Source: Stegostoma tigrinum
Taxonomy: Eukaryota
Assembly: GCF_030684315.1 (NCBI RefSeq)
Contig: NC_081392.1
Span: forward strand, 14,390,427-14,454,426
DNA length: 64,000 nucleotides
Direction: 5' to 3'
In this document: positions 3,176-62,426 of the stretch, in pieces
How positions within the stretch are numbered: the first letter of the stretch is position 1
How the letters are laid out: every line of letters begins with the position of its first letter
Made by a program: the position numbers and the translations under genes
The notes under the pieces: generated by a model
Told to the model about the DNA's origin: nothing
Database searches by the model: none
What the model saw: only the letters and a program-made list of their open reading frames with translations

Positions 3176-3469
3176 GTAAACGCTGGGTGTGGTGGAGGGG
3201 GTCAGAAAGGGAAACTGGAAGGAAAGACACCTCACTTACAAAGGTGAGAGGAACTCGGAAAGTAAGGTCTGAGGCTGCCGGGGAATTGCGAAAGGATCGG
3301 TTGTGTCGGAGAAAAGTGTACGGGGGAGGGGCGCTGCTGAAGGCGGGGTGAGAAAAGAATAGGATGGGGGTGTAAATTAAGGGGGCGAACAGAGTTTAGG
3401 GGAGTAAACTGGGAGGGTGTGACGGGGCTAGGGCTGTAAATGGGGAAGGCGGGTGTTAGGAGTATGCAT

Positions 3470-9130: not shown

Positions 9131-9260
9131 GCAGCATCTGGAGGAAAGGACACGACACTGTTGACTTCTCCTTTCCTCCAGATGCTGCCTGGCTTGCGTG
9201 TTCTTCCTGCCTCCTTTTTGTGTACCTATGATTCCAGCATCTGCAGTTTTTTTTGTCTCT
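9131..9260 (+). mobile_element. Miniature hairpin Penelope-derived element
   Basis: IR caggcagcatctggaggaaagga / tcctttcctccagatgctgcctg, tail ccagcatctgcag, 15-bp TSD aaaaggaaaaatcag (9116-9130, 9261-9275). Confidence 0.75.
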
Positions 9261-39900: not shown

Positions 39901-42900
39901 CCTTAAAAATATAACTTTCTAACAAGGCTGCCCACATGCCGTCTCTATGAGGCTCTTTTTTAAAATTTTCTAACACAAAGTAAAATCTCATGGAACATTT
40001 TTAATTTCATTAAAGGCACTTTAAAACAACACAAGTGCCAGGCAATGACAGTCTCCAATGTGAGAGAATCTAACCACCTCTCTTTGATATTCAGTGATGT
40101 TAACATTGCTGAATCTCCCACTATCAACATCCTGGGGGTTACCATTGACCAGAAGCTGAACTTGACTAATCATATAAGTATAATGGATACCAGACACACG
40201 TGTGGGTGGGAATTCAGTGGTAAGTAACTCACTATCTGATTCCTCGAAACCTGCCCATCACCTACAAGGAACAAGTCAAGAGCATGAAAGAACACTCCTC
40301 ACTTGCCTGGATGAGTGCAGCTCCATCAACACTGAAACCTCAACACCATCCAGAACAAAGCAGTCTCCTGATTGGCTCCCCATCCATCACCGTCAACATC
40401 CATTCCCTCCACCGCTGGTACCACAGTAGCAGCAGTGTGTTCCATTTACAAGATTATCCTTATTTCCAAACTGATAACCTTCAGATTTGAAAATAGCGAA
40501 AGAGACTCTTTTATTCCAGATAAAAGGAAACTGCAGGCCAATTGGGCTTAACATCTGTAATCGGGAAAATGCTAGAATCTGATGTTAAGGTTATGACAGG
40601 GCACTTAGTAAGTCTCCGTGACATCAAGCAGAGTCAGCATCGTTTAATGACAGAGAATTAGGCAGACGTAATTTCTCTAAGTTCTTTGAAGAAGCAAGTG
40701 ACTGCATGGACCGTGTGTGGATGAGCAACATTTAGATTCCCAGAAGTATTTGATGGGTCACCACATTAAAACATTACTGAACATAAGAGCCTGTGGCATC
40801 CAAGGTAATGTTTTACGATGGATAGAGGATTGTTAGCTAATGGGAAACAGTAGACTCTTTCAAGTTGGCAGACTGTTAAGTAGTGGAGTGCCATAGGATC
40901 AGTGTTGGAACCAGAGATACTTACAAACTGTTTCAATGACTTGAATGAAGGGACCCAATGCATGCTGGCTACATTTGTTGAAGAAACAAGATAGGTAGGA
41001 ATGTAATAAACACAAAATGCTGGAAGAATTGAGCATTCTGGCAATGTCTGTGGAGAAAGAAACGTGTTTTACATTTTGAGTCCAGTGTGACTTCAAAAGG
41101 TCAAGGGAAAGAAGGGCGAGTAGGAGGTGTCAGCTCAGAAGGAAGGAAGCCAACACACAGTATCTGCAGTGGCCAGGAGAGACCAGAGTTTTGGCCATAG
41201 AGGTGGATTTTAATGTGGATCCCAAGTGAAAATCAACAATAGAGTCATTTTCAAAAGTGAATTTGAATGTGAGCCCATTCATCCAGCATTGATGGGGTGA
41301 CGCAAAAGAGAAGTGCAGCACAGGAACAAGCCCTTTGGCCCTCCAGGCCTGTGCCAATCATCATGCCCTAAGTAAAACGAGAAAAACAAACCTGCCCTTA
41401 TTCAGTCCATATCCCTCTGTTCCCTCCCTGTTTACGTAACCATCCAGATGCCTTTTAAATGCCGCCAGTGTGCCTGCTTCCACCACCACTTCTGGCAGTG
41501 CGTTCCAGGTTCTTATTACTGCCTGCGTGAAAACCTTACCTCACACATCTCCCTTAAACTTTACCCCATTAACATTTGAATCTGTGCCCTCTTGTAATTG
41601 AAACTTCAACCCCGGGAAAAAGCCTCTGACTATCCACCCTATGTCTGCCTCTCATAATTTGGTAGACCTCTATCAGGTCTCCTCTCGGCCTCCGTCTTTC
41701 CAGTGAAAACAATCCTAGTCTTTAAAACTTCTACTCAGAGCCAGTGCCCTCAAGACAGGACAACATCCTGGTGAATCTTCTCTGTACTCTCTCCAGAGTT
41801 TCCACATCCTTCTGGTAGTGTGATGACCAAAATTGCACACAGCTGTCCAAAATCAGCCTAACAAGGGTTCTATGTAGCTGTAGTATGTTTTGCCAACTTT
41901 TGTACCCCATGCCCCGACAGATAAAGGCAAGCATGCCATATGCCTTTTTAATCAGCTTGGTCACCTGTATTGCCACTTTTAGGGAACTGTGGACCTGCAC
42001 TCCCCTCTCCATCTGTATGTTAATGTTCCTAAGGGTTCTACCATTAACAGTATTATTCACATTTAAATCTGATCCTCCAGAATTCATTACCTATCATTTG
42101 TCTGCATTAACCACCATTTCTGTGCCCAGGTTGCCAATCTATCCATACCCTGTTTTGTCGTTTCACAGTTGTTGGTACTACCAGAAATTCCATCAGTCTT
42201 CGTAACATCTGCAAACTTACTAATCAGACCACCTACATTTTCCTCCAGATCATTTATATAATACTACAAACAACAGAGAACCAATCTCCATTCTGAAAAG
42301 CACTGTTCTACTGTCACCCTCTGTCTCCTATAACCAAGCCAGTTTTGTGCCCATCTAGGAAGCCCACCCTGAATCTCATGTGATTTTAGGGACTTTATCA
42401 AATACCTCACTAAAACCCATGTAAACTACATCCACAACCGTTCCCTCATCAAATATCTCTGTCACCTCTTTAAAAGAAAATTCACATACTCATCCCTGAC
42501 CTCAATATCAGTCATATCCTTCTCCTTGGTGAATACTAATACAAAGTACTCATTAAGAATCTTTCCCACTTCCTATGGCTCCATGTATAACTTCCCTCCT
42601 TTGTCCTCAAGTGGGCCTACATTTTCCCTTGCTACCCTCTTCTAATGTATGTATAAAAAGCCTTGGGATTTTCCTTGATCCTGTTTGCTAAAGGCATTTC
42701 ATTGCCCCTTTTAGCCTTCCTAATTCCGCGTTTAAGTCCTTCCTGCTTTCCACTCCTCAAGGGCTTTGTCAGTTTGTCGATACCTAGAGCTATCGTATGC
42801 ATCCTTTTCCCTTTTGACCAAGCTTACAATTTTGCTTGTCACCCACGGTTCCTGAATCCTGCTATTCCTATCCTTCAGTTTTGCAGGGACGTGCAATGTC

Positions 42901-45900
42901 CTATGCTTTAATCAACTGGTCTTTAAAAGCCTCCCACGTATAACATGTAGATTTGCCCTCAAATAACTGCTCAGTTAAATAACTCAAATAACAAATAACT
43001 TCCCCAGTTCCTGTCTAATTTGGATGTAATTAGTCTTTGCAAAACTAAGCACCCTCACCTGAGGGCCACTGTTGTCCTTGTTCATGACTACTCAGAATCT
43101 TATGGAGTTATTGTCACTAAGCCCAAAATGCTGTCCTGACTCATTCCCTAATACCAAATCTAATCTGGCCTCCTCTCCGGATTGTCAACATACTATCACA
43201 AAAAGCCCTTCTGGAGACATCTAACATTGCTCTCCATCCGAGCCCCTGAATCAGTAGAGCTAGACTCAAAGAAATCTTGTTAGGAGGGAGTTACAGGGTT
43301 AGGGGAAGGAGGCAACTCAGAAAGGAAAAGGAAATTATTTGGGGCTATTGGAGAGCTTGTGATGTGTTTACAAACAGCGTGAGGAGTCATGCCTCTGATA
43401 CAGAACATGGCCAAGTGTAGCACAGGCACGTGATGTTCGATTGGATAATGAGAGGGAAGTTAGATAAATGAGAAAAGGATAGTTCGAAGGGTATGCTGAT
43501 GGTGAAATAGAGGGGTGGGAAGAGGCTTGTGTGGTGCCATGATGCTGACATTGATCAGTAAGGCTGAATGGCCTATTTCTGAGCCGTGAATTAATGTAAT
43601 ACTTACACAAAGTTCCAGCAAAGCTAATGAAGTACCCAGCAAGTTAGTACCTTCAGGAGAGGAGGGCAGGAGGTTACGAGAGACAGGAAATTGCCTAGGT
43701 ATGTTTTAATATCGCTACGTGGTTGGAGTTAATTGATTAATTGGCTAGATACAAATGGGGAACAGGAGACTCTATGGGTCGTACTGGTAGCGTCCGTACC
43801 TTTACCTCAGAATGGCTGGGTTCAGGTCTAACCTGTTTGGGAAGTGTATCATATGTATCTAATCAACTTGCTCAAGGATATCATTGCACACCCCTGGAAC
43901 AGGTAGGTCTTGCATCCTGGCCTCCTGGAACTCCCAAGAAGGGGAGCCATCTAGTGTTCAGTTTGCACTATGCAAAGACCAGCCATTATCACTTTCAGTT
44001 ACCAATTTTCAGATCTTTTAAATTGACCTACCCAAGGATATTATTGCACACCACTGTGAGACTTGAACCTGGGCCTCCTGGCTTACAGATAGGCAATTAC
44101 CACCCTGCCACAACAACCTCTGAACAGGCTGAGATACTTTCTAATGAGTTTTGAGAACTTTCTAATCAACCTGTTTAGGGATGTATCATCCTTTTGTATT
44201 TTCTATTCAACCTGTTCAGAAATGTTATTACACACCTCTGGAACAGCTGGCACTTGAACCCAGGCTCTCTAGGTCAGAGGTAGCGACACTGCTCCTTGGC
44301 CATATTCCCTTCCGAACAGCTTGATTAAGTGCCCAAATGAGAGATGTACGGGAATAGTATGCAGAAAGAGCTGCAAGACTGAGTAGTTAATAAACACTAT
44401 CCACGAAGAAAGTTGTCTTGGTTCCACGTAGTATCTGGATCCAAATTGGACAGTGTGTACCTTGCCCCTGCTTCACACTGTTGTTGGATCTTTGCTTCAT
44501 ATTTAAGATCAAGGAGTCATTCGCGTTCAGGTGACCGTTATCGCCGGAGCAGCAGGACAAGCTACAGCTCGAGTCGACGTTGGAACAGCAGCAGTCGGAG
44601 CAGCAGTGACAGTATGAGTGGCTCCCAGAGTCAGAGCAAATCTTTGTCCCCCGTCAAAGAGAACCTGGGAAAAGTGGCTGCTTCACCCGCCATGGGCGAG
44701 AAATTGAAAAAGTGAGCGTGACTTTGAATTGCTTGTGACTATTTTTATTAATGTTTAAATCTGTCAGTTTATTTTCTGAATTCTTTTGTGAGATATGAGA
44801 GTCACTGGCAACATCACCGTTAGTTGTCCATCCTTAATTGCCTTTGAAATGAGAGGCTTGTTAGGCCGTGTAAGAGTGAATTGCGTTGTTGTGGTTCTGG
44901 AGTCACATATAGTTCAGACTAGGGAAGCGCAACAGATTTCTTTCTGTAAAGGACATTAGAAACCAGATGGATCTTAACAACAAGTGGTGTAGATAGGAGC
45001 TGAATGGCCTACTGCTCTTAAATCAAAACCGACAGAAGAGGATTCTAGAAATCAGAAACAAAAACAAGTTGCTGGAAAAGCTTAGCAGGTCTGGCAGCAT
45101 CTGTAGAGAGAAATCAGAATTAACGTTTTGGGTCCAGTAACCCTTCTTCAGAACATACCCTTCTGAAGAAGGGTCACTGGACCCGAAACGTAAAGCCTGA
45201 TTCCTTTCCACAGATGCTGCTAGACGTACTAAGATCTCCCAGCAATTTCTACTCTTAAATCAAGTTCATTGTTGATTTTATTCAGTTTTCCATCTTCCAC
45301 ATGTTGAAAGCTATTCGTCAGACCAACAGTTAAATTTAGGAACTACTGGTTTGTATTGTTCCAGCTCCTAAAAGTTGGTGAAACACAGATGTTGGTTAAA
45401 TTGCACTGTGTTATCCTCTGAACTGTGCATTTTCTCTATCTTTCTCTCATTCCAGGTCTGACACTCCTGTGGGTAAAGAGTCCGGAGCTGCCAAAGTCAG
45501 TAAGAATTTTAGCTCACCTCCGTTAACACAGCCCTTCTGAAAACCTCACAGAAACACTTATGCAGCCTCAAGTAGTCTTTCAGCAACTTTTAGTAGCTTT
45601 TCTTTTTAACCTGAAATTGTCCTTGAGGCCGAGTGACTGGAAACACGAAGCAGAGTGCATACCAGTTTGGCTCACACACACAAACTGTATTAATTTTTAA
45701 TGAGTTCTAATATGTTCCCTTTCTGTCTCCACCCCCCAAATTGTACTAAAATTCAAAGGCATTGAACTGCCGAAGAATCAATAAGGCTCGTCTCTAATCT
45801 TCCTCTCTCCTGTGATTCTGTGAATGCTCTAAAGTTACTGCAGAGACATTTTAGAATTTGTTACAGGTCTATATTTTGCAGGATTAATGCTTCCACATTG

Positions 45901-48900
45901 TACAGTTGCTGGTTAGCTTTTCTATTAATGTATCATGTTTTCCATTGAATTTTGCTATGTCAACTGTCACAGTTGTACTTGCAGTTTCTAGCCATTAGGG
46001 ATACTCAAGTGAGTTTCTGAAGTGTGTTTCAATTCTGTCAGCTAAATGTGTGCAACAGCAGAGGTGGTTCACCAGTGTCGGCTAAATAGGTTTTACGGTG
46101 TTATAAGACAACGTATTTTAAATCTTTTTGCATCACCACGACAACTATTCTAATCATCCTCTTAAATTAGGCATTTTTCTGAGTCGTGCAGGCCTGAAAG
46201 CCCCCTGTGTTCCATAAGTGGTCAAGGCCTTGGGCAGCATTTCCAGACATTATTCAGCACCCACTGTGTCCAGGAGGAAGTAAAGCCAGGTCATTTTTTC
46301 CTGGCTGTAGAGTAGCTTCTTTTGATTTGCCCACATCCTGCATCAAGTGAGCGTTCATCTTCCACAGCACAACAGTCCCCGCTGTTTGCCTTGTGCATGA
46401 TGTAAGAAGACAGCTGATTGTTGTTGAATTGCACCCCACAAAGGGTTAAACGCATCCGGGGAGGTGGTAAAAATTTACAAGGTGATTGTAAGTCAGTTCT
46501 GTGTTGGGAGTTTTCCAAAAGAGGTTTGATCAGTTTTCGGTAAAAGGCAGAATGGTGCATGAACCTTCAGACCAATGTGTTAGGAAAACGGTACGGTGAA
46601 GGTTTAAGTGACTATGGGAAGCCAGGAGTTTTCAATGTTTACTTTGATCATGTCGAGCCTAAGTTACTAAAACTAACCTTTTTTTAAAAAAATGCCTTTC
46701 CCAAGCTATTCTGCATGCTTTTCATTTTCTGATGTACAGAGTCATACCCCTAGACAGCTGCTGCATGCTCTGACACTGTCCTTTGTGACCCATGTGCACA
46801 TTTACACACAGTCCAAAGGATCTAGTTAGTGTTACTGTGGCCATTTTATACAGCCCAGAAAGAAATTGTGCTATTTACAAGAATGAACCCTAGTTTATAT
46901 GGCTGAATGCTAACACAGCACTAAGCAAATTACTGTTTTGGAACTACAGTCTGTTTTTGTGCAGGACAAACATGACAGGGCACTTAAATGAGAAAAATGA
47001 TTATTAACCAGGGCACTTCACTTACTCCAAGAACAGCGTGAGAGCATCTTTTATATTTACTCATAACATGCCCTCAGATAAACATCTCCTGTCAGTACTG
47101 TACTGAAGCATCAGCCTTTACTACATGGCTGTGTCATTGGCAAGTTGCCTGTGATCCAGGTCAACATTCTAGTCAGCGATGAGGGGACACTGTGATGTCA
47201 GAAGTGCTGTTTTTCGTTGAGGATGAGGCACAAGCTGCCTCCTTGTAGTTGGTGGGCAAAGGAAGATCCTGAGGCACAGTCTGTCACAACAACAGGGAGG
47301 TTGTCCCTGATGTTCTCATCATTTCAGCCAAGATCACTGAAACAAATGACCTGGACACTGTGCTGTTTGTGGGAGCTTGTGTGCAAATTGGCTGCTACAT
47401 TTCCAACAGTGATCACCCTTCAAATCATAGTTCATTGACTGTGAAGTGCTTTGAAACTTGTGGAAGGTGCTGTGTAACTGCAAGTCTCTCATGTTCGGGT
47501 GGGTCCTATACTCAACTTTCTGATTTAGTTGACCATATCCTGCACCCAGTTAAGCTGCCAGTGGTCCCAGTAGACATAACTTTATTAGAACACAGCAGCA
47601 GCAGTAACAAAGCGTTAAATCTGCACCCTCAGTGGTTGGGGGGGGGGGGGAGGTGGGAAACGTGGGGGCAGAATCTTCCTAACACCGTTACATTTGAGGC
47701 TAGACAGAGCAATGATATCTCACTCGCCCTGAACATTTACCTTTTGAATCCCAGACTTGAGCCCTCAGGTTTGAAGATGTTTAATTTCTCATTGTCATTT
47801 CCACCTCCTTTGTAACTGTGAGCACCTGCCTTAGCAAAGCTGACCTTTGTTTCCTGAATAATGTCTGGAGGTTTTCATATGGAATCCTCATTGAAGCATT
47901 TAACACTGTTAGTCCTGTATGATCCACTGTCTAAAGACGAAACAGAAGGTATCTTCTGTCTATTTTTTAATGACCACTTGCTCCCAGAAGGTTAGGCCAC
48001 AAAACTGGTTTAATTATCTTTTCTTCACTGAGGCTTGGACCCATCTTCATGTTCAGCAGTGAGATTGCAACAGGATTCTCAAGTCTGCAACGTGTCGTGC
48101 ACATACATTGAGATGCCCAGGGTATTAGTGTTAACTTCCTGAACGGCTCAGTACCGGACAGAAAATTTAATGTAGTGCTGCAATCAGTAGTCTTTGCAAC
48201 AATGCTGTATGTTGGTAATTTAGGGGCTGAATCAACAGTGCCAGCTAGCAGTGCTTGATGGCATGGTTGTCAGACCTTTGCTTATTGTGTTGCAGAGAGT
48301 TCAAATTCTGATTGCTTCTGCTATTATTTGAATCATTGCTAAGTGTACTGTGTGCAATAAACCCTTACCTTATGTTTGCATTCATCTAGGTTGCAGAAAG
48401 CCCGTAATTGTAACTTGAAATGGTGTAAATCTCCCAGTCTGTGTGGGGCTCTCCCTTTCCCACAGGCTGGTTGGCTGACTGTTGCCAAGGCAGTCAGAGT
48501 TTCCAGGGTGAAAAATGAGTCCCATTCCGTGCTGTTTCTCTCGACGTGATGCAGGATTTTGATACTGTCTGACTTGCTGGAATATTGGCTCCGAACAAAT
48601 GTCACCTTTTTTCTTTCTTCCAGCCAAAGCTGACACCACAGGAAAAGCTGAAACTCCGCATGCAGAAGGCGCTGAATAAACAGTGTAAGGTTCTAAGTCC
48701 CAATTTGCTGCTTTTAACCCCTGCGGGATTTTGGTAACTTTCTGTCCTTCAAGGTGATCGTTGAGTCGGTGCTTTGACCAAGCAACAGGTTCTGCTAATT
48801 CTGCTGATTGTAGAAATAGTAAATCTACCTATACATTCCCAACAACCACTCCTGGGACAGGGACAGCATGGGGTTCGATACAGAGTAAAGCTCCTTCCAC

Positions 48901-51900
48901 ACTGTCTCCCATCAACCACTCCCAGCACAGGGTCACATATAGAGTAAAGCTCTCTCTGCACCATTCCCTCATCAAATACACTCAGAACAGAAACAGTACA
49001 GGACTTGATACAGAGTAAAGCTCAGTCCACAGTGTCACCATCAAATACTTCCAGAACAGGTACAGTATGGGATTAGATACAAAGTAAAACTCCTGTTTTG
49101 TCCAAACTCTGTACTTCAGAAGAGAGGACCACATGGGGGCTTGAACACACAAGTCAATGCTGACACTCCGATGTGGTATTGAGGGACGTGCTTTGAGGTG
49201 CTCTCTTTCTGATGAGACATTAAATTGTCTGCTCTGGTGGATTCGAGAGATCCCATGTCCACTGTTTTGAAGAAGAATGATGGAATTCTCTCCAGTGCCC
49301 TGACCCGGTGTTTATCACTCCATCAACATCTTACACACAAAAAAGAAAATCTGGTTGCTGTCACGTTGCTGTTAGTGGGAACGTGCTGTGATGGTGACTA
49401 CATTTCAATAAGTACCTCACTGGCTACTAAGTGCTTTGAGACAATCCAGCAGCTGTGAAAGGTGCCATATAAACTGGGAAATGGAATTAGAATGGGTTAG
49501 GCGCTTGTCTTTTTCCAGTGCAGACTCAGTAGGCCAAAGGGCCTTTTTCTGTGCTGTAGGAGGCTATACATGTGGCTGTTCATTTTTCATACATCCTACA
49601 ACAATTTACACAACCCAAGTGATGCTGTTTACATATGACCTTGAGCAGTGACTGAGTAGCTGTTCACCTCTGAAAGTCATCATGGTCAAACCCAGCCGTG
49701 CCCAATGTCCACAGCATGGGCATGTTCTCTGGGGACCGAAATCTGGGGGAAGGAAAGCCTGACTGATTACCCCACTCCAATTTCCACCATCCTGTTGTTA
49801 CCAGGCTCAGATGTATCTTGGGTGAAATGTGAATTACCCCTCGCCATTGGCTGCAGACCCGCTAATCCATAACAAATTGAGGGCCAAGGTGCCATAACTC
49901 TGCTGGGCTCAGGAACTCCATCACAAGTGAGCCTATAAAATCATCCAGAGGGATTGAGAGTAGCTGGGGATTGTGTTCCTGGAGAGAGAGAGAGTACATT
50001 GGAATGATTAGATATGTGGGAGTGGGAATACCTCTTCAGGCACGTATTGACAGAAGTTAATCCTTTTTTTTTGCCTCCTCCAGTTAAAGCTGACAAGAAA
50101 GCGGCTCAGGAGAAACAGATGCAGCAAGAACAGGAGCGACAGGTAATCTCCCAGGGCAGCAACAGCCAGTCAGATCGCGGGAAGAGTTGTTGCAGATGTG
50201 GGATGTTTAGAAACATTGTAATAGAGGGAAGCATTCAGGCTCTTTAGACTATTCATCCCACTTGTTTAGGTCATGGCTGATCTGTGGCTTAATTCTACTT
50301 AACCTGCTGTTGTCACATAATCCATAAAATGCTTACCTATGCCAGAATCCAGTGTACCCACCACCCAGGCAGCATCAGTGTGTGTGACATATCGTTGCCA
50401 TTAATACTGCATGTTGCTGCCTGCATCTGAAAGTGTTCTTTTCATTTAAACCAAAGTTTGCCTGAAATCCACCCTCCACGAATCAGACTAACTGCAATGG
50501 GAAGCTTAATACATTATCCTTTCTTCTGTTAAATCTCCCAGTTATAAAATGTTTGCAAAACTGTTGACCCACAGGAGCTTCCCAAAAGACCCCTCAATTT
50601 TCCACACATTACCCTGAACCTTAAGTACAATGTGGAGGGGAGTGATAGCAAATGTAGCAGAGAACTGGGGGGAGGGGAATTCAAGGGGAGTGAACACTAG
50701 GACAGAGAGGAGACTGGGAAGTGGGGCAGCAAAAGAAGTGTAGCTACAATGTGCAAAATAAAATCAGCGGCACCAACTTTTACTGCCAGTGCATCGGCAG
50801 GAGGAAGAATGAACAAAAAAAATCTATTAGTCTCGCAAATTTCTCTAGCATCACATCTTTTGAGGAAGTTGATGTCCAGATTACTTGACCCTTTGCACGA
50901 AGAAGTGCTGATTCACTGCTAAACAGACCTGGCTGTAAAAGTTCATCACAGTTTTCTCTGGAATCACTCGTGATGGATACAAGTTTCATTTTTTCTGTTT
51001 ATTCATTCACGGGATGTTGACGTCTCTGGCTGAGCTGGTATTTATTGCCTATCCCTGATTGCCGAGGGGGCAGTTAAGAGTCAACCACATTGCTGTGGGT
51101 CTGGAGTGACATGTAGGCCAGACCAGGTTACCTTCCCTAAAGGGCGTCAGTGAGCCAGATAGGTTTTTCTGACAATCAACAATGAATTAGTAGACTCCTA
51201 AATCCAGATTTTTATTGAATTCACAATTCGGCCAGATTCAAACCTGGGTCTTCAGAACGTTACGTGGGTCCCTGGATAATGTCTATGGTCTCCAGTGATC
51301 ATACCATTAGGCCATCACTTCCCTTGATCCCTTTGTCATTTAGACACCGTCATTAGATTGGGCTTCATTGTAGAATACGAGTCACTCTGAAGCACCCTAA
51401 AGTCTTAACTCTTTAAGTTCAAATGTACTGCCAAGCAGAGTGCATCCTTCTGAAAGCAGTATCTCTTTCCGGGGAATGTTTTACGTCAGACGGGCCAGAC
51501 CAGTGCTCTGTTTAACTAAAGCAAAACTTCATGCAGCTGCCTTTACATAGAAGCCAGCATCCCATTGGCCATTTTTGATTCCTTGATTGACTGGTCTTTA
51601 AAGTGTATATTTTATGGCATGTAGCTAGTGCTTAGTTTAGAACTGAGTTCACTCCTCAGTGCTGAACAGCTGCATCTCATGGAGGGTTGCAGTGGGACTT
51701 CAATTTAAATTCTTGTTCATATTCATTTCTACTGACTGTAACTTTTAAATAGAGAAAGAGAGACCACAGAGTGCTACAGTGCAGAAAAGATACTGTGTTG
51801 CTCATGGAGCGCAAAATGTCAGTATGTAGATACATTAGTTAATTAGGAAGGCAAATTAAATGTTGTTTTACTATGAGCACATTGGATTTAAAAGTAGGGA

Positions 51901-54900
51901 AGTTTTGCAACAACTGGTCAGTGTAGTTTTGGCTTCCTCCTTTTTAAGAAGAGATATACTTATAATGTTACTTATATACTTATGCAATGATATACTAATA
52001 CATTGTTACAATATACTTCAAGGAAGTGTACCGTGGCTGATCCCTGGGGTGTGGTGATGTGGTTCTCTCAAGTCCAAAAGTTGACCAAACTGGGCCTCTA
52101 CAGCGGGGGCAGGAGAAGTGATCTTAGAAAAAAAATATAGCATTCTGAGGCAGCTTGATAGCCTAGATTCTGAGAGGAAGTTTCCTGTTTATGTGGAATC
52201 GAGAACTAGGGGTACAGTTTAAAAATGAGGGATCTCCCATTTAATTCTCTTCCCCAGAGAGCAGTGGGGGCTGGATCATTTAATTTATTCAGAGCGGAGT
52301 TAGAGAAGATTTTGTTTGATTGACAAGGGAGTCAAAGATCACGTGGGGTCAGGGAGATGAATGGAGTTAAAACCACAGTCACTTACCAAATGGTGAATTA
52401 GGCCCAAAGGTCCATTTGGCCTTCCAACAGATCCTGGTACACATATTGGGAATTTATCCAGCAATGAGGAATGGTTCCACCACAATTTGATAAGTAGCAA
52501 GTACAAGTAACATAACTGTGTTGCTGCCTGTCACGCTGATTGCAATCTCTTGCTTGCCTGAAGCTCTCATTTTGTTGGCCACCAGAGGACACACATTTAA
52601 GATTGCTAGAGTCAGGATGGAGATAAAAACAGTTTGACACAGCGAGTTGGTGTGATCTGAAACCTGCCTTCCCTGAAAGGATGCTGGAAGCAGATCATAT
52701 TTAACTTTCACAAAGCATTTGGAGATCTGGTTGACGGGGGCTGAAAGACAAATGGGACTGCCTTATAGCAGTCTTTGATTTGATTTATTATTGGCATGTG
52801 CACCTGGGTACAGTGAAAATTTTGTTTAGCGTGCAATACAGGCAGATCAAACCGTACCAAGTGCATTCGCGAGGAATACAATGTGGTGGCTACAAAGAAT
52901 GGGATCACCGTTAAATTTAAAACTTGACAGGTCCATTCAGAAGTCTAAGAGTGGGGGAAGAAGGTGTTCTTAAATCTGTTTGTACTTGTATACAAACTTT
53001 TTTTATACTTTCTGTCTAACGGAAGAGAATATAACTGGGTTGGGAGGAGTCCTTTGATTACGTTGGTTGCTTTCCTGAGCCGATGGGATGGAATTGATGG
53101 ATGGAATGCTGGTTTGTGTGATGTACTGGCCTGTGTTCTGTTCTCTCAGTAAATGCAAGATTACACAACACAATTTGGGATTAAAACAGCCCCGCTAGTA
53201 TATTTCTTAGCATGATCATGCTAGATCTGACCATCAAGCCTCTAGTCTGATGATGTGGAGCTGGGGAACATATGGTTTTGAGCATGATGCAAGGCAGGTT
53301 ATTAGGAGACTGCAAGAGACTTTTTCAGACGGTGTTAAACAAGGGAATTGTTCAGCATGTTAGCAATGGACAGCTAAAGTGAGAGGGCTTTGGGATTTAG
53401 GGCATTTTTGAAAGTACTAAGGGGGGATACTTATTCTGGGGGCAGAACTAACATTAAAGTGGCTTAATCAAGATGTAGATACTGAGAGAGGGAAGCAAGG
53501 AAAGAATATTGCAGTCAGAGAAACTGGAGAAGAGCCAGCAAAGAGTCTTGCACCACAGATAAAAATGAGCCTGGCTTGATTGTGGATAAAGAGCAGGTCA
53601 CTAGGGTGTGATGGTTAAGCAAGAGAAGCATTGTGCGTGCAGAAAGAGATCAAGGAACTGGTGGATTAGACAAAGAGGGTGTCTGAGAATGAGGGTGGGA
53701 GTGGAGTACAGGGGCAAGTGAGTGGCGGTAAAACAGTGAGAGAATCTGTTGGAGCTGCCACCCTGGGACTTATACCTAGGTGGGTACAGAGAAACTTTGT
53801 TATATATGGAAAATTTGAAATAATCTGAGAGTAAACATTTCAGTTGAACTGTTTGTTTCTCTTTACAGGAGCGTGAAGATGAACTACGAGCCATGGCTCG
53901 AAAGATCCGACTAAAGTAATACTTTTCTTCTCCCTCCATCTGTCTTTGTGTGTGCAGTAAATTACTGTATAAGGCTGCTGTAACCTCTGCTTCAGATCTC
54001 TACTTAGCTTCACTGGTTGTGACCATGGTGTGGATCCAACAGAGAAGCAATGCAGAAAGCTATTCTAATTTGTACATTCATGTGCATTGAACAATTGGAA
54101 TGTTTCTCCAAATCAACAAAGGCAATTCAGCAGCACTTCCTCCCTTGTTCGTTCCCTTTTCCAACTGTTATTGGTACACAGGCCCATGCTTGTTGCCAAA
54201 ATACAGGTAGCGAACTATTGTTGAGCCACCAGTTCAATCCTGTTCTCGTTGTGATCCGCCACACACTTCCCAGTCCCTCACCACGTCATCTTGCTGTCTG
54301 AAAACAAGTCCTCTTCAAGTATTGTTCTACGCGAGATCAGGCTGCACCCGTGGTTTAATTCCAGACCACCTTGTTTCAGTATGAGCTGTGGTGGAACTTG
54401 CAGTTTCAGTTTGTCCATTGAAGATGGGCATGGGAAGGAATTTCTTCAAGGATAGTTAATGTTTGGAATGCTGTCTCTTCCCCCGACCCCCCACAAAGAG
54501 CAGAGGAAGCTGGTTCATTGTATACGTTTAAGGCTGTATCAGATTTTTGATTGATGAGTGAGTCGGGTTGTTGGAGGTGAAGGGCCGGAGGGTGGGGACG
54601 GCGCTGGTCAGACAGGAAAGCGTAGTTGGGACCGCAGTTAGATCAGCCACAATGTTATTGAGTGGAATGATGGAACAGGCTCACGGGGCCAAATGACTCA
54701 GATCTGCTCCTACCACATGTGTTCTTTTTGAAGGTTAACTTATCCTTGATAAAAATTGATTTGTCGACGAGCTCAGGCATACTCTGCAATTTCCAGCGCT
54801 CCAACAAGGTCGGGCGGGATGATAAGGGCTAGCTCACTGTTTCTTCAGTTGAATTCTTGCATCCCCCACAAGGTGGCGCCAGAATGCTCTTCATGAACAG

Positions 54901-57900
54901 AACATCAATTCCACACAAGTGGATCAAAATCTGTGTTGATCATTTACAGCCTTTTATATGCTGTCTTCAGAATCTGCACGTCAATCTCGATCCAAGCCAG
55001 TTACTGTTCTTTGTGATTAGAGTTTATTGACTGCTCAGTCTTACAGCTCCTTCACACACCACTTGCACCTGGTCAGCTTTTAGATATTGTCTAAATTGTT
55101 CAGAAACATTGTTACATACTTCTGGAGCAGGTGCGATTTGAATCTGGGCCTACGCACACGCACTGTTAAGGAAATTACCACTGTACCACAAGAAATGTCC
55201 TTTTAGATCTATCTCGTCAGTTAGTTTTTATTCTCATATCCAGAGGTGCTTTTATGCATAAGTGAAGTCTTTTTTTTCCCCATCACCAAATCACCTGTGT
55301 TTTTTTTAATCGATTAGCCAACATGCCCAGACAAGGTAGCTAATTAATCAAATAACCCTGCCTAACTGTTTGCCATATTAACACTTGTGGGCCCTTGTTT
55401 TGTCGTGAAGAGTTTCAAAAACAATTTCCCTTCTTTAAAAGCAATGGCTGTGTTTGTGTGTGCATGCCCAACACTGTAATGATACGGATGCTGTGCTGTT
55501 CCTGTAGAGGTTTACGCTTGGCTGTGAATGATGGCCTCACCACTGAGACACTGCAAGGTGCCAGTACTGATGACTCCAAAGCTCCAGAAAAGGTGGGGAG
55601 AACATAGGGTATGGGAGCAGGAGTAGGCCATTCGGCCCATTGAGCCTGCTCTGTCACTCATCTAGTCAGTAGCTCAATGCCACTTTCGTGCACAATCTTC
55701 ATATCCTTTGAAATCTGTAATATCGAGAGTGGGAACATTATGATTGGGAAAGTGAGCAAAAATAGTCAAGCTTGTTTGGGTACTTATCCTCTGGAGTAAC
55801 CAGCAGGTAGAATGTTGAAGTTAGAAACTGCGCAGGTGTACAGATAGTATCTAGGAGCACAGTTTGTTGTGTTTTTGTTTTGTTGCACAGTGCCATTTGT
55901 TCATTTTTCTTCCTGCTGTCTCCTCCTCCTTTACCCCCCACACTCCCAAAATAAAAATGCAGGGAGCGAGAACGCAGAGATAAAGAAAGGGACGAGTGGG
56001 AGAAGGAATACCCGAGAAGGAGCCGTTCATGCTCCCCAAGACATGGTACGTATTCACTGTCACTGTGTTCTCATGTGACAGGAGCCTTGATTTGGTGGGA
56101 TTGCAATTCCTTCCTGCTCCCTGCTGTGTGAAATCTTTTGCTTATTGCCTGTGAAGCACTTTGCCAGGTCCTGATATTGCTATGGGTGCTCTGTAAATGC
56201 AAGTCTTCAATTTGGTATTTGTGTTGCAGTGATGCATTGTGCCACCAGATGGCACAATAGTTTCATTGCGCTCAGATCCTTTGTACCTTAGTGCGATAAG
56301 GTGAGTGGGGCGAATAGCCTCTGTCTGTGCATTCCACCTCAGAAAATGCAAGCGGCTCAACTCTGAAGAGTCATCTACACTCAAAAACATTAGCTTGCTC
56401 TCTCTGCATGGGTGTTGCTTTACCCACTGATTTTCCAGCATTCTTTGTTTTCTGAATGTATCTTCATCTCAGTCCTGCTTCTTAGTGGTCACTTTGTCTG
56501 CTTTCCCCTGTTGGTCAGGTCCAGCGAAAGCTCTGGGCCAGCTGGAAGTCATACGGGAGGACAAAACAATAATGGGTCTGTAGTGGCAGGGAGAAAACCT
56601 GTCCTTTCTGGCCCTCCACTGTGTCCAGTTTCACCACCAACTTTATTCATTGAATCCCTACAGTAATGTTTTGTATCTCCAGTGAGTGTTAGTGTCATGA
56701 GGTTACTACGGACTGTTAAAATTCACAATTTTAATTGTTGAGCCTTCAGCTGCCTGTGCCCTGAGCTCTGGAATTCCCCCCCATAAACCTCTCCTTCATC
56801 ACCTACTTTAAGAGATTCTTCAAACGTTTCTTGGCTCCCCTGGGTCACCTGTCCTAAAATTAGCTCCTTCTGTGTCAAATTTTGAACATTGCTCCTCTGA
56901 AGCACCTTGTGGGTTTACTGTGTTAGGGCACTCTAAAAATGTAAGTTATTGGGGTTGTCTTGTGCCCTGGGACAGGTAGTTCTGTGGGATCTCCCCAGTA
57001 CTGTGCAGCACTGCTCAGTTCTGCTGCTCTCGGGTTTCTGTTTGTCACCAAAGGAACTTTGCTTTTCCTGGAAAAGTAAGCTATGTGGGAGGGAGGGAGC
57101 TAAGAAACCAGCCTGTTGTGTTTTGTTTTTTTTTGCTGATCATGAACGCTTGGCACGGTTGAGAGAGAAAGAGCGAGCCAAGGCATTATGTAACATTTAT
57201 CACATCTTTCAGAGACGCCCCAAAGCTTTCAAAGCTGAATGAAGCAAGTTTCACTTTTCACAAGCTGTTGTTGGCTCAACCTTTCAATTTAATTACAGCC
57301 TAATTTTCTCCTCACCTGTCCTGACCCTTAACTATAGGGTACTGTTCTAATTGTGTCAGTGGCTGAATTCACGTGACTAGCAATGGGTTATTGGACTTTG
57401 GGGGCATCACTACTCCATCCCGGCCTTGTTCACTTGGTTACTGATCACGAGCGAGGGTTGGGTTTATCATTCACTCTCCTTTCTGATCCAGGGTTCATAC
57501 AGTCTGGCCACCTTGGATGTGGTACCCATTTGTCACGGACCAGTGACCAGGACCTCAGGCCTGTGAAGCACTGTAGGGCTGCTTTCACCATCTGAAATGC
57601 TAAGGGCATCCACAACTGGGGGGAGAACACCTTGCATTTCTGTAGCATCTTCCTTGGCTTCACCATGTTCCAGAGAGCTTGACAGCCAGTGAGGCACCTT
57701 CTGAAGTCTAGTCATTGTTGTTCAGGGAACTTTGCAGCCAGTTTGAGTTCCTCATGGTCCTGGGCACATACTCTGGATCATGAGCTTATTTTAATTACTA
57801 ATGCTGTTAAATCTCTGCTGTCCCTTGCTGACAGCGTACCCACAACCACCAGGTAGTGGCACACTAACGTAAACACAGCACTTTCTGTTGCCAGTCATGC

Positions 57901-60900
57901 TTTTTCCCCTGCATTGAGACAGTGCCATTGTTGCCCATCCCAAGTGGTCTTCCCGCGTGGTGTAAAATTTTCTGCCTGTTGCTGCGTTTGTGGGAGAGAC
58001 TTTGGGAACTGTACGTCACTCAGTAATGTCACTTTTTATTTCCTCCTCTCCTGTTGTTTGAAATTTGCCGTCACCTCCCAGTAGTCTCTGTCCGCCTCTC
58101 TCTCCGTTATGTATCGTCAATTGACGCACCTCCCACCACTCAGCAGGGACTGACTCAGTCCAAGCCCCTATCTTATTCATGATTGAGCCTGGATGGGTCA
58201 GACAGGATTCCATCCCCTAAGTCTGTGGGGTGCCTGTGACAAGCAACAGTTCAGTTCAATTGTCAACGCAACCATAAAATCTACCCCAAGCTGTGTGTTA
58301 AATATCTTAAGTAAGCACCAGTTTAGAAAAAGACATCATCCCTTTTTACGTAGAGGGTAGTAGGTGCCTGGAATGTGCTGCCGAGGGAGGTGGTAGAAGC
58401 AGATACCATAGCAACATTTAAGAGGCAGTTAGACAGAGACATGAACAGACAGGGAATAGATGGAAGGGATATGATCCTGTGCGGGCAGTTGGGATTGGTT
58501 TAGAATGGCATCACAGTCAGCACAGACACGGTGGGCTAAAGGGCCTGTTCCTCTGTTCTACTGTTCTGTTTTCAAAGAATGCAAACTGCATAGTTTTGAC
58601 TCATTGCTTAAAGTATGAAATGGCATTAGAAACAGTTTAGGGAATCTTTTGAGTTTATTAGGTAAAAGAGTTCAGTTTGTGTGGAAAGATTGACAGGCTG
58701 GGCCCATACCCAGTCAGGTGTAGATCACAGAGGTGATCTTGTTGACGCACGCAAAGTCCCAAGGGTGCTTGACACAGTGGGGTTGAGATGTTTGGAAATA
58801 GGGAACACAGTGAAGGATCTTCCACTTAAGATGGAGAAGAGTTCAATTGTTTTAACTCTGAGAATCATTATTCTGTGGAACTCTTTCCCAGAGATCAGGC
58901 AGGAAAGGGGAAACAAAGCCACAGACAGATCAGGTTTGGTCAGTATTGAATAGTGGAGCAGGTTCAGTAAGGCATTTGATAAGGTTCCCCATGGTAGGCT
59001 CATTCAGAAGGTCAGGAGGAATGGGATACAGGGGAACTTAGCTGCTTGGATACAGAATTGGCTGGTCAACAGAAGACAGCGAGTGGTAGTAGAAGGAAAA
59101 TATTCTGCCTGGAAGTCAGTGGTGAGTGGGGTTCCACAGGGCTCTGTCCTTGGGCCTCTACTGTTTGTAATTTTTATTAATGACTTGGATCAGGGGATTG
59201 AAGGATGGGTCAGCAAGTTTGCAGACGACACAAAGGTCGGAGGTGTCGTTGACAGTATAGAGGGCTGTTGTAGGCTGCAGCGGGACATTGACAGGATGCA
59301 GAGATGGGCTGAGAGGTGGCAGATGGAGTTCAACCTGGATAAATGCGAGGTGATGCATTTTGGAAGGTCGAATTTGAAAGCTGAGTACAGGATTAAGGAT
59401 AGGATTCACTATCCCGTCTACCTGTGACTCCGCTTTCAAGAAACAATGCACCTACACTCCTAGGTCCCTTTGTTTACCAGCACTCCCCAGGGCTCTACCA
59501 TTAACTGTATGAGTCCTGCCCTGATTTGCATTTCCAAAGTTCAACACCTCACATTTATCTAAATTAAACTCCCTTCTGTTACTCCTCAGCCCATTGGCCC
59601 ATCTGATCAAGGTCCTGTCGTACTCTGAGATAAATTTCTTCACTGTCCATCACACTACCAATTTTGGTGTCATCTGCAAAATTTATTAACTATGCTTTCT
59701 GTACTTGCATCCAAATCATTGACACAAATGATGAAAAGCAGTGGACCCAGTGCCGATCCTTGCGGCACACCGCTGGTCACAGGCCTCCAATCCAAAAAAA
59801 AAACCCTCCACCACTACCCTCTGTCTCCTATTTTTAACCAATTTTGTGTCCCATTGGCGAGCTCTCCCTGGATCCCAGGTCATCTAACGTTACTAACCAC
59901 TTTACCATGTGGCCACTCAGTAAAGTATCCAGCAGTCTCTTCCCCAGCTTTCTGCAAAGTTCTGGGATACATCCGATCAGGTCCCGGGCATTTATGCACC
60001 TTTGTATCCAATGTGAGCACTTTTCATTATGTCACCATTTATTTCCTTATGCTCTCTGACTTCCATATCCTTCTCCACAGGAAAAACTGATGCAAAATAC
60101 TTGTTTAGTGTCTCACTCATCTTCCATGGTTCCACACAGATCTTTAAGGGGCCCTATTCTCTCCCTTTTTACTTTTTTCCCCTTAATTATGTTTGTAGAA
60201 CCTCTTTGCTAAAGTTAACTCATGTCCCCTTTTTGTCCTCCTGATTTCCCTCTTAAGTATACTCCTACTGGTTTTATACTCCTCCAGGGATTCACTCAAT
60301 CCCAGCTGTCTCTACCAGCCATGCGCTGCCTTCTTTTTCTTGACCAGAGCCTTAATTTCCCTCGTCATCCAGCATCCCCTGTACCTACCAGTCTTGCCCT
60401 TCGCTCTAACAGGAACGTGCTGTCTCTGAATTCCTGTTATCTCATTCTTAAAGGCCCTCCACTTTCCACCCATCCCTCTACCTGCGAATAGCCTCTCCCA
60501 GTCAACTTTTGAAAGTTAAAAATCGAAAGAACTGCGGATGCTATAAATCAGGGGGGAGAAAAATGCTGCTGGAAAAGCTCAGCAGGCCTGGCAGCATCTG
60601 TGAAGAAAAAAATCAGTTAATGTTTCAAGCCCAATGACCCTCAGAAACCTGAGTAAGGGTGACCGGACCCGAAATGTTAACTCGGATTTCTCGTCACAGA
60701 TGCTGCCAGACCTGCTGAGCTTTTCCAGCAACGTCTGAAAGTTATTGTTGAAATCAGCCTTACTCCGATTTAGAGCTTTAACTTTTAGATCGGGTCTATC
60801 TTTTTCCATAACGATGTAAAACTAATAGAATTAAGATCACTGTCCCCAAAGTGCTCCACCATTTGCACCCCAGTCACTTTCCCTGCCTTATTTCCCAAGA

Positions 60901-62426
60901 GAAGGTCAAGTTATGCTCCTTCATTTTGCCCCTTTGTAATTTTTTTTCACTATTCCTAAATACACCTCAACCGAGTTGTTTGTTTGGGACGTTTCGGGGG
61001 AGTTTAAGAGCCAACTGCATCAGAGTAGGTCTGTGATTACACGTAAGTGCAGGTAAAGGCAGCCAATTTCTTTCTTTTGATGATTAAAACTAGAATTCAA
61101 TTCTACTTTATTAGTTAAATAAAAATTCCACCAACTCCTCTGCCAGAAGCCTGAGCATAATGTGGAGGCTGAAGTGCCCCATCAGCAGTGCTGAGGGAGT
61201 GCAGCATTGGCAGCTTTAATAATTCCTTTGTCAGGGCCTGCTGCAGGTGACCTGGACCCCTTATCACATCACCAGTTGTGGGATCTTGCTGTGGAGAAAT
61301 TGTTGCATTTTCTACATTGCATGCAAGTGCCTGCACCTTAAAATGTTCTTCAGTGGCTGTATACCATTTTGTGATATCTTGAGATCGTGAGAGGTGCTGT
61401 ATAAATGCAAGGCTGTCTTGTGTGCACAAAGGGGTGACAGAGAAATCACAGAGGGTATCACAAGTTGCTGTGGCAGCCTTAGAGAGATCTACAACCAGAG
61501 GGTGGACTGTGTCTGTGTGTAGAGAGTGTGAATTGACATGCTTTCCATTAGAAAATTATCCTTTTCCCTGAATGAATGTCCATCGTGAGATAACAAGTTG
61601 TCTCTTCGGCATGATTTGGTAAGGCAGAAGTTGCTGGAAAAGTTCAGCAAGTCGAGCAGCATCTGTGAAGAAAAAAAGTCAGAGTTAACATTTCAGGTCT
61701 GGTGACATGAGGATGAGTCGCTGGACCCGAAACAGTAACTCTGATTTCTTTCTTTCTTCACAGTTGCTACCAGACCTGCTGAGCTTTTCCAGCAACTTCT
61801 GTCTTTGTTCCTAATTTACAGCATTCACAATTCTTTCGGTTTTTATGATTTGGTAAAAGTTTGGTTTAATATTGCATCGGAAAGACAGCATCTGCAACAA
61901 CAATGCAGTGCTCCTGTCTTCCACCTCTCCCGACCCAATACCACACTGGGTATGGAAACAACAGGCTGGTTAAGTGAAATCACCCTATCTCTTGAGAATT
62001 GAGTTGCTCACACTTTGTGCAGAGGTCTGAATCGGAGGGGTGATTTGCCTGTGGGAGTATCTGCAATGATTCCATCTCCCACTGTGACTGATTCTCTCCT
62101 CTTTTGCCCTGTAGGCCGTGATTACAGCAGCTCATCACGAAGGTAAGAGAAACCAGTCTGCACAGTAACACTGGAATGTGTCTTTTGTGAGCCAGGCCAT
62201 GCTTGTTGGAGGGGATGTGAGCTGTCTGAGCAGTGCAGACCTGAACAACCTTAAGGCATCACTGCTGCGTTGGCATTGAAGGAGGTTTATTTCAGAGAAG
62301 GAGCTCAGCAGTTGCTGGGGTTGGAAGACCAGCCACTCCTTAGTGTGATCCATCAACTGACTGCTGTATAAATGTTGAGGCTTGCTGCAGCCCCCTGCTA
62401 TGCTCTTCCACATTCCCCCCACCCCA

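What the first reader, a model, noticed from the sequence alone, without database searches (positions are those of the whole stretch)
45015..61856. Family of ~220-bp non-coding palindromic mini-elements with ribozyme-like cores, one-sided tails and variable-length TSDs
Seen: three copies (45027-45251, 60519-60735, 61623-61844) share ~85-95-bp inverted arms that meet at or near CTGANNA-GGGTCactgGACCC-GAAACGT, a tail of roughly 40 nt on one side only, and TSDs of 12, 9 and 12 bp. The core is intact on the + arm at 45163 and decayed in the others. Relatives lie at 37995-38320, with half copies near 11060-11160, 41010-41100 and 56360-56450. The architecture is the 441-1864 element minus its coding part. 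Inference: they look like MITEs, but variable TSDs and the asymmetric tail point to retrotransposition. They may be a non-autonomous hairpin/ribozyme RNA parasite (retrozyme-like) mobilised by Penelope enzymes, or repeated extreme truncations. This is the best candidate here for an under-described system.
Basis: partly seen in the sequence, partly recalled or inferred. Interest (0 to 1): 0.7.

Follow-up and report, generated by a model that had tools for sequence, protein, structure and literature searches.

The report
Shortest mirror-image Penelope retrotransposon insertions
These ~220-base mirror-image repeats are the shortest insertions of a very abundant Penelope-like jumping gene, each likely built anew when both cut DNA ends copy the front of the gene's RNA out to its tip, so they are likely dead-end by-products and not a self-spreading ribozyme parasite.

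Summary
The three palindromes, their one-sided tails and 12/9/12-bp TSDs are real. The arm is the hammerhead-bearing terminal repeat of a coding Neptune/Nematis-type Penelope-like element (PLE); one 38-mer of it has 8,800 exact hits genome-wide. Inverted arm, ~38-nt tail and variable TSD are the published PLE layout. The centre is fixed in position (96 of 185 unbiased arms end within 9 nt), but not in sequence. That point is also where several full-length copies begin. It sits on an initiator-like TCAGTT 29 nt below a TATAAA, and is often preceded by an extra G (50 of 100 non-C junctions, about 29 expected), as cap copying would leave. So each mini is likely made afresh: two cDNAs start at the element's two internal sites, run off the capped RNA end and are joined head to head. 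The ribozyme's catalytic G decays at the neutral CpG rate, and ends at the cut site are rare. It is not a MITE or retrozyme. The scan reached much the same reading before, on other DNA in this and other genomes. The layout is known; the mechanism is inferred and untested at the bench.

The parts
45015..45026 (.). Left TSD, 12 bp, copy 1
45027..45065 (-). Tail of copy 1 (stretch between the two inferred reverse-transcription start sites, about +101 to +140)
45066..45154 (-). Inverted pLTR arm ending at +1, the inferred RNA 5' end
45155..45160 (.). 6-nt filler at the centre, resembling nearby arm sequence
   Evidence: gap 6; sequence
45161..45251 (+). Tail-less pLTR arm, from +2
45163..45192 (+). 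Minimal type-I hammerhead motif (core box, bulged A, 5-bp stem II, GAAA box, cut triplet); predicted to be buried in the long hairpin in any RNA of the whole copy
45252..45263 (.). Right TSD, copy 1
60510..60518 (.). Left TSD, 9 bp, copy 2
60519..60648 (-). Tailed inverted arm of copy 2
60649..60735 (+). Tail-less arm of copy 2, from +4, core decayed
60736..60744 (.). Right TSD, copy 2
61611..61622 (.). Left TSD, 12 bp, copy 3
61623..61706 (-). Tail-less inverted arm of copy 3, ending at +14
61708..61844 (+). Tailed arm of copy 3, from +5, core decayed
61845..61856 (.). Right TSD, copy 3
37995..38320 (.). Older relative with two inverted arms (76% and 73% to the family pLTR) and an unexplained spacer of about 130 nt
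11060..11160 (-). Single arm of an older related PLE family (74%)
41010..41100 (-). Single arm of an older relative (70%)
56360..56450 (+). Single arm of an older relative (75%)
9172..9252 (+).
441..1864 (.). Long palindromic insertion of a sister PLE family with the same layout, centre inside the endonuclease coding part, 18-bp TSD

Best explanation
The minis are the smallest insertions of a coding Neptune/Nematis-type Penelope-like retrotransposon, each likely assembled at its own landing site from two cDNAs that likely start at the element's two internal start points and likely run off the capped 5' end of its RNA. Shown: the arm is this element's terminal repeat; the 3' ends fall at two sites about 38 nt apart; the 5' ends pile up at one point, which is also where full-length copies begin; centres vary between copies. 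Inferred steps: (1) Pol II starts at the A of TCAGTT, 29 nt below a TATAAA in the upstream copy's 3' UTR, so the RNA's first 38 nt are the hammerhead. (2) The enzyme makes a staggered cut, giving a 9-17-bp TSD. (3) Each DNA end primes reverse transcription internally, one at about +100 and one at about +138, which makes the one-sided tail. (4) When priming happens near the RNA's 5' end both cDNAs run off after 100-140 nt, sometimes copying the cap as an extra G. (5) The two cDNA ends are joined bluntly, by microhomology or with short templated filler. One priming gives a single arm; one short and one long cDNA give the textbook inverted pLTR on a coding copy. The products lack the TATA box, fold into a hairpin that buries the ribozyme, and decay neutrally.
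For: Parent: the same arm ends copies coding an RT with the DKG motif and a GIY-YIG domain with the CX2-5CxxC linker. Pfam RVT_1 E 6e-6 and GIY-YIG E 0.02 on 2 of 4 open frames. The arm also heads the ORF. 5' pile-up: 96 of 185 unbiased arms end at -3..+5, against 6 and 11 in the two neighbouring 9-nt windows. Genome-wide, 512 arms match +2..+38 exactly and only 54 of them continue to -6. Of 30 loci fetched at the ORF's 5' part, 12 reach the pLTR: 5 begin at -3..+5, 4 are partial tandems, 3 begin further in. Among 73 arms reaching -36, the 7-nt TATA stretch is exact in 41 and TCAGTT in 56. Base before the start A in the first 100 of 1,203 non-C junctions: G 50, A 34, T 16 (hand count); background G share 0.25-0.32, p 2e-4 or lower. 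3' ends are bimodal, and 56 of 63 unbiased palindromes have a tail on exactly one arm. TSDs are found in 68 of 87 palindromes against 10 of 87 mismatched controls. Centres: 15 of the first 62 loci have the plain one-base centre, seen in both orientations to the tail (5 and 2 of 22); about 35 carry individual fillers (hand count). In 23 of 56 the tail-less arm reaches 8 nt or more further 5' than the tailed arm, which snap-back copying cannot give. The sister family shows the same pile-up: 80 of 167 arms at -3..+10. In vitro, another PLE starts RT at two internal sites that bound the tail, extends both strands and uses uncut RNA (PMC11167929).
Against: No RNA start was seen: only assembled contigs were on offer, and they cannot show starts. 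Both Pfam hits are below the curated cut-offs; 2 of 4 frames, 2 of 2 and 3 of 3 gave nothing. C is the commonest base before the start A in single arms (14 of 27; G 8, A 5) and was excluded; 5 of the 50 G rows can come from the partner arm. 62 of 185 arms end inside the pLTR, short of the start. Unequal arms could also come from later deletions at an unstable hairpin centre. Non-CpG core sites are slightly less mutated than controls (5.2% against 6.9%, not matched for base composition). About a quarter of centres are identical, which a few master copies could also give. D. virilis Penelope has an internal, TATA-less promoter (PMC2377424), so single arms might still be transcribed.
Confidence: 0.78

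Rival explanations
1. A self-renewing non-autonomous family: some minis or single arms are transcribed (internal initiator or read-through) and are copied again by the PLE enzyme, in the manner of a SINE or retrozyme.
For: Short forms far outnumber long ones (54 of 512 continue upstream). 15 of 62 centres are identical. Penelope has an internal promoter (PMC2377424, passages). Non-autonomous PLE derivatives are known (PMC8557442 passages; 10.64898/2026.07.22.740005 part 1).
Against: Most centres are unique, and the plain centre occurs in both orientations. Subfamily states are in similar shares in minis, single arms and long copies. The catalytic G is changed in 95 of 284 arms, like other CpG sites (591 of 1,697). 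The three window copies are not head-to-tail tandems, which define animal retrozymes (PMC7229834, passages). The hairpin is predicted to bury the core. Single arms as a source of RNA are not excluded.
Confidence: 0.12
2. One cDNA only: the inverted arm is made by self-priming or snap-back on the first copy or on an antisense template, as proposed for PLE inverted junctions.
For: Proposed in PMC3846280 (passages). The two arms of a copy usually share subfamily states (93 of 117 and 94 of 115 at two sites). 21 of 56 pairs end within 7 nt of each other.
Against: The plain centre has a one-base loop. In 23 of 56 the tail-less arm holds 5' sequence that the tailed arm lacks. Some copies pair a run-off arm with an arm over 400 nt longer (L084, L050). 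Each arm ends at one of the two sense RT start sites.
Confidence: 0.07
3. The pile-up is a reverse-transcriptase stall or an RNA processing site (an upstream 8-bp hairpin or a splice donor), not a transcription start.
For: The sequence just upstream can form a short stem ending at +3 (consensus). A GT lies at +1 and an acceptor-like site at +55.
Against: TATA and initiator spacing, the G excess, and full-length copies starting at the same place. None of the 15 joints shown of 60 was GT..AG.
Confidence: 0.08
4. A MITE-type DNA transposon.
For: Short, non-coding, long inverted arms.
Against: TSD 9-17 bp, one-sided tail, and continuity with an RT-endonuclease ORF.
Confidence: 0.01

Closest known systems
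Endonuclease-bearing PLE insertions with an inverted 5'-truncated pLTR, one-sided 30-40-bp tail and variable TSD (PMC8557442 Fig. 2 legend; Pen2a_Av in PMC3846280; passages read)
   Same: Inverted arm, one-sided tail, 9-17-bp TSD, partial tandems, ORF start inside the pLTR, CX2-5CxxC linker of the Neptune and Nematis clades.
   Different: Here both arms are reduced to the RNA's first 100-140 nt and such forms are the majority. The passages read do not tie the inverted junction to a capped transcription start.
Poseidon element of Anolis (PAc) in vitro (PMC11167929, parts 1-2 of 4 read)
   Same: Two internal RT start sites bounding the tail, both strands cut and extended, uncut RNA as the main template.
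   Different: Different clade. The parts read do not describe head-to-head joining or run-off products.
Minimal hammerheads of metazoan PLE pLTRs (PMC4209133, parts 1-2 of 4 read)
   Same: Core boxes, bulged base before stem II, G-C first pair, palindromic two-pair stem III, short stem I, thousands of dispersed copies; pairs on opposite strands 100-700 bp apart were noted in Schistosoma.
   Different: U at position 17 in this family. The motif appears to begin at the first base of the RNA.
Animal non-LTR retrozymes (PMC7229834 passages; 10.64898/2026.07.22.740005 part 1 of 5 and passages)
   Same: Short, non-coding, type-I hammerhead, PLE-related, long TSDs.
   Different: Retrozymes are head-to-tail tandems giving circular RNAs. 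These are single head-to-head units with neutrally decaying cores.
L1 insertions with a 5' untemplated G (PMC9341517, passages)
   Same: Extra G at the 5' junction read as cap copying, with an initiator at the start site.
   Different: Different retroelement class, and seen here statistically in old copies. L1 twin priming is a recalled parallel that comes from no call.

Membership tests
EN+ Penelope-like element (parent) | RT with DKG motif upstream of the core | tested here: met
   DKG in several long copies; RVT_1 E 6.2e-6, below the curated cut-off
EN+ Penelope-like element (parent) | C-terminal GIY-YIG endonuclease with CCHH | tested here: met
   Motifs in translation; Pfam GIY-YIG only E 0.02 in 1 of the frames tried
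Neptune/Nematis clade | CX2-5CxxC linker before the endonuclease | tested here: met
   C-x4-C-x2-C in L100 and L104; definition from PMC8557442
Neptune versus Nematis | Placement in an RT tree with reference elements | not tested
EN+ Penelope-like element | [quoted passage not shown] | tested here: met
EN+ Penelope-like element | 30-40-bp tail on one end; variable TSD | tested here: met
   56 of 63 one-tailed; TSD 68 of 87 against 10 of 87
Minimal type-I hammerhead | CUGANGA and GAAA boxes, bulged base, stem II, NUH | tested here: met
   131 motif hits in 1.49 Mb of loci (partly fetched by this motif) against 0 in a shuffle; Rfam no hit
Minimal type-I hammerhead | Stem covariation | tested here: inconclusive
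   Only two families compared: one U-A to C-G change in stem I and one U-A to U-G change in stem II
Minimal type-I hammerhead | Self-cleavage | not testable with these tools
   Indirect only: 5' ends at the cut site are rare in this family
Non-LTR retrozyme | Head-to-tail tandem units | tested here: not met
   Window copies and sampled loci are single arms or head-to-head pairs
Non-LTR retrozyme | Core kept intact across copies | tested here: not met
   Full core intact in 92 of 237 arms; catalytic G lost at the CpG rate
Non-LTR retrozyme | Abundant monomeric or circular RNA | not testable with these tools
   Only contigs available
MITE | Fixed TSD length and symmetric ends | tested here: not met
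Catalogued Repbase/Dfam family | Match to a library entry | not testable with these tools
   Neither library is on hand

The most novel reading that the evidence does not exclude
Tens of thousands of these minis are a genomic record of the missing step of PLE insertion. A dimeric enzyme primes both target strands at two internal RNA sites. Near the RNA's 5' end both copies run off and read the cap. Their head-to-head joining explains the inverted pLTR, the one-sided tail and the fixed boundary in one mechanism. It also puts the hammerhead in the first 38 nt of the transcript, behind a TATA-plus-initiator promoter lent by the upstream copy, with uncut RNA as the template.
Probability: 0.6. Interest if true: 0.55.

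Novelty: new member of a known kind. Interest (0 to 1): 0.33.

Why it matters
As an element it is ordinary: the short end of the size range of a common PLE. Its value is as evidence. How PLEs form inverted repeats and tails, and what their hammerheads do, is described as open in the papers read (PMC8557442, PMC11167929). The end statistics give a specific model that the existing in vitro PLE assay and one CAGE library could test. They also warn that MITE-like or retrozyme-like repeat annotations in such genomes may be PLE by-products.

Tried and rejected
Rfam scan of the window: no hammerhead, one chance snoRNA hit. RNA evidence: no RNA holder listed. Four runs guessed to be RNA, laid on a partial-tandem copy, gave contigs only: no place where many molecules begin, and no GT..AG joint among the 15 shown of 60. 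This says nothing on expression or start site. No empty-site joint among the 15 shown of 90 for the 45027 copy. Cleavage-site ends: 0 of 185 unbiased arms start at +34, and 9 start at +26..+40 with no peak. A pattern for starts at +34 gave 49 genome-wide. Of 30 inspected by eye, about 14 are true ends, several sharing microhomology with the partner arm, and about 16 are internal deletions or mutations. The +36 control gave 19. The +38 control was swamped by a two-base slip variant and is unusable (502). In the sister family 6 of 167 arms start at its cut site, which is also a 4-nt palindrome, so this is weak. A type-III hammerhead using the upstream hairpin, and an intron starting at +1, were considered and found no support. 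Pfam on two endonuclease frames and NCBIfam on three frames: no hits. A first multiple alignment of long copies was cut and not used. Literature searches listed no paper on this family or on run-off at a capped start in PLEs. Subscription papers, Repbase, Dfam and all supplements were not seen and may hold it.
Full report
Observation. The three copies, arms, tails and TSDs are as described. Contigs of two public runs cover both junctions and the centre of the 45027 copy. The arms meet just upstream of the hammerhead core, so each arm carries one core. The 441-1864 element shares the layout but only a 45-nt, 76% match; it is a sister family.

Abundance. The genome has 3.2 Gb. One 38-mer of the arm has 8,800 exact hits and its reversed control none. 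Sixteen 10-kb stretches chosen without regard to content held 10 insertions, 3 of them palindromes, older relatives included. That suggests tens of thousands of palindromes, with a wide margin. I did not establish the host by a tool; earlier scan notes call this genome a shark.

Parent element. Following arms upstream led to copies with a 3' UTR, a GIY-YIG domain preceded by C-x4-C-x2-C, and an RT with DKG. Pfam support is weak but concordant: RVT_1 E 6.2e-6 and GIY-YIG E 0.02, both below cut-off, on 2 of 4 frames; two searches gave nothing. By PMC8557442 (passages) the linker marks the Neptune or Nematis clade. The same arm heads the ORF, so it is a pLTR. Inverted truncated copy, 30-40-bp tail on one end and variable TSD are the published PLE layout (PMC8557442 and PMC3846280, passages).

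Where arms end. Numbering puts +1 on the G of GTTCTGAGG. I used 204 insertions picked by a downstream anchor or found by chance in flanks, dropping those at locus edges; arms under 85% identity were dropped for end counts, leaving 185. Of these 96 end at -3..+5, 27 further upstream and 62 inside the pLTR. The neighbouring 9-nt windows hold 6 and 11. Genome-wide, 512 arms match +2..+38 exactly and 54 of them reach -6; decay of the 7 extra bases lowers the second figure somewhat. 3' ends cluster near +100 and +138. 56 of 63 palindromes have a tail on exactly one arm. TSDs were found in 68 of 87 palindromes (67 of them 9-17 bp, mode 13-14) against 10 of 87 with mismatched flanks.

What the boundary is. 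Of 30 loci fetched at the 5' part of the ORF, 12 reach the pLTR. Five start at -3..+5, four are partial tandems, one starts at +9 beside an inverted arm ending at +1, and two start further in. The upstream sequence has TATAAA beginning at -29 and TCAGTT across -2..+3; the 7-nt TATA stretch is exact in 41 and the hexamer in 56 of 73 arms that reach that far. Reading these as TATA box and initiator rests on recalled consensus. Among the first 100 of 1,203 junctions with a non-C base before the A at 0, G is 50, A 34, T 16 (counted by hand). The background G share is 0.25-0.32, giving p of 2e-4 or lower, and about 4e-4 or lower after removing 10 rows with other explanations. A 5' untemplated G is read as cap copying for L1 (PMC9341517, passages). 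Against this, C is the commonest base there in single arms (14 of 27), so starts may be spread over -1 and 0. PLE promoters lent by the upstream copy's 3' UTR are known (PMC2377424, part 1 of 4 and passages), though that one is internal and TATA-less. The sister family shows the same pile-up just before its core: 80 of 167 arms at -3..+10 (listing cut, histogram seen).

Own family or made anew. In the first 62 loci of a centre search, 15 have the plain one-base centre, 5 a two-letter variant of it, 7 a shorter spacer and about 35 individual fillers, often copied from nearby arm sequence (by hand; the pattern only admits short spacers). The plain centre occurs in both orientations to the tail (5 and 2 of 22). 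Two diagnostic sites show similar subfamily shares in minis, single arms and long copies, and the two arms of one copy usually agree. In 23 of 56 the tail-less arm reaches at least 8 nt further 5' than the tailed arm, in 12 the reverse. Some insertions pair a run-off arm with an arm over 400 nt longer. This fits two separate syntheses; later deletions at the hairpin centre could mimic part of it.

Ribozyme. The family majority is a minimal type-I hammerhead as defined in PMC4209133 (parts 1-2 of 4). Its 4-bp stem I begins at position 0 and the cut triplet is GUU. The catalytic G lies in a CpG and is changed in 95 of 284 arms, like other CpGs (591 of 1,697). Other core sites changed in 5.2% against 6.9% for controls not matched for composition. 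The full core survives in 92 of 237 arms. In all three window copies both strands are predicted to fold into one long hairpin covering the core. Ends at the cut site are rare: none of 185 at +34; 49 pattern hits genome-wide, about half of 30 inspected being true ends, against 19 for a control position. For this family there is no sign that cut RNA is a main template. That agrees with the Anolis work, where uncut RNA was the substrate (PMC11167929, parts 1-2 of 4). Animal retrozymes are tandem units yielding circles (PMC7229834, passages; 10.64898/2026.07.22.740005, part 1 of 5 and passages); these are not tandems.

Mechanism. Most likely a staggered cut, priming from both DNA ends at the two internal RNA sites, run-off at the capped 5' end and head-to-head joining. 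PLE origin is close to certain; assembly anew at each site about 0.85; the capped run-off with twin priming about 0.6-0.65. Whether the RNA is the front of the full mRNA or a short read-through from 3'-end copies cannot be told, and single arms as templates are not excluded. RNA data could not test the start.

Prior work. Searches listed no paper on this family or on this run-off reading; PMC5753468 (passages) added nothing. Repbase, Dfam, subscription papers and supplements were not seen. I stated my reading before opening the scan's notes. Those notes, unreviewed AI text and not independent evidence, show the same reading many times in this and other genomes. One suggested the unequal-arm test, and two claim cut-site ends, which I did not find in this family.

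Verdict. A real, very common feature; the short end of a known element type, with a testable mechanistic reading. Interest 0.33.

Noticed in passing
L133-L159, 5' end of full-length copies: A 30-codon reading frame starting at +56 runs through the tail and is in frame with the main ORF, separated by one TAA; acceptor-like sites lie before both ATGs. It may be an upstream ORF, read-through or an intron.
   Followed up: partly
L081, L215, L218, L223, L235, L052: A minor second cluster of 5' ends at about -30 to -36, at the TATA box and its short self-complementary words.
   Followed up: no
family majority -24..+3: An 8-bp stem with a 13-nt loop can form just upstream of the core and would compete with stem I in read-through RNA but not in RNA starting at 0.
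   Followed up: partly
window 37995-38320: Older palindrome with about 130 nt between the arms that matches neither reference.
   Followed up: no
L294, L005, L030, L236, L221: Arms of the two sister PLE families often sit next to or inside each other; L294 joins an arm of one directly to an arm of the other.
   Followed up: no
L138, L140, L144: A hammerhead-like word pair on the antisense strand of the ORF's 5' part, with only G-U pairs in the stem and no NUH; probably chance.
   Followed up: partly
L087, L187, L183: Centres with 20-40 nt of repeated short copies of the arm's first bases, suggesting several template jumps before joining.
   Followed up: no
window about 3400-5350: G-rich tandem array of 24-32-nt units.
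   Followed up: no
window 9960-10290, 29890-30170, 36880-37390, 38930-39560: Several dispersed copies of another repeat, also common in the fetched loci; they look like LINE 3' fragments (recalled, not tested).
   Followed up: no
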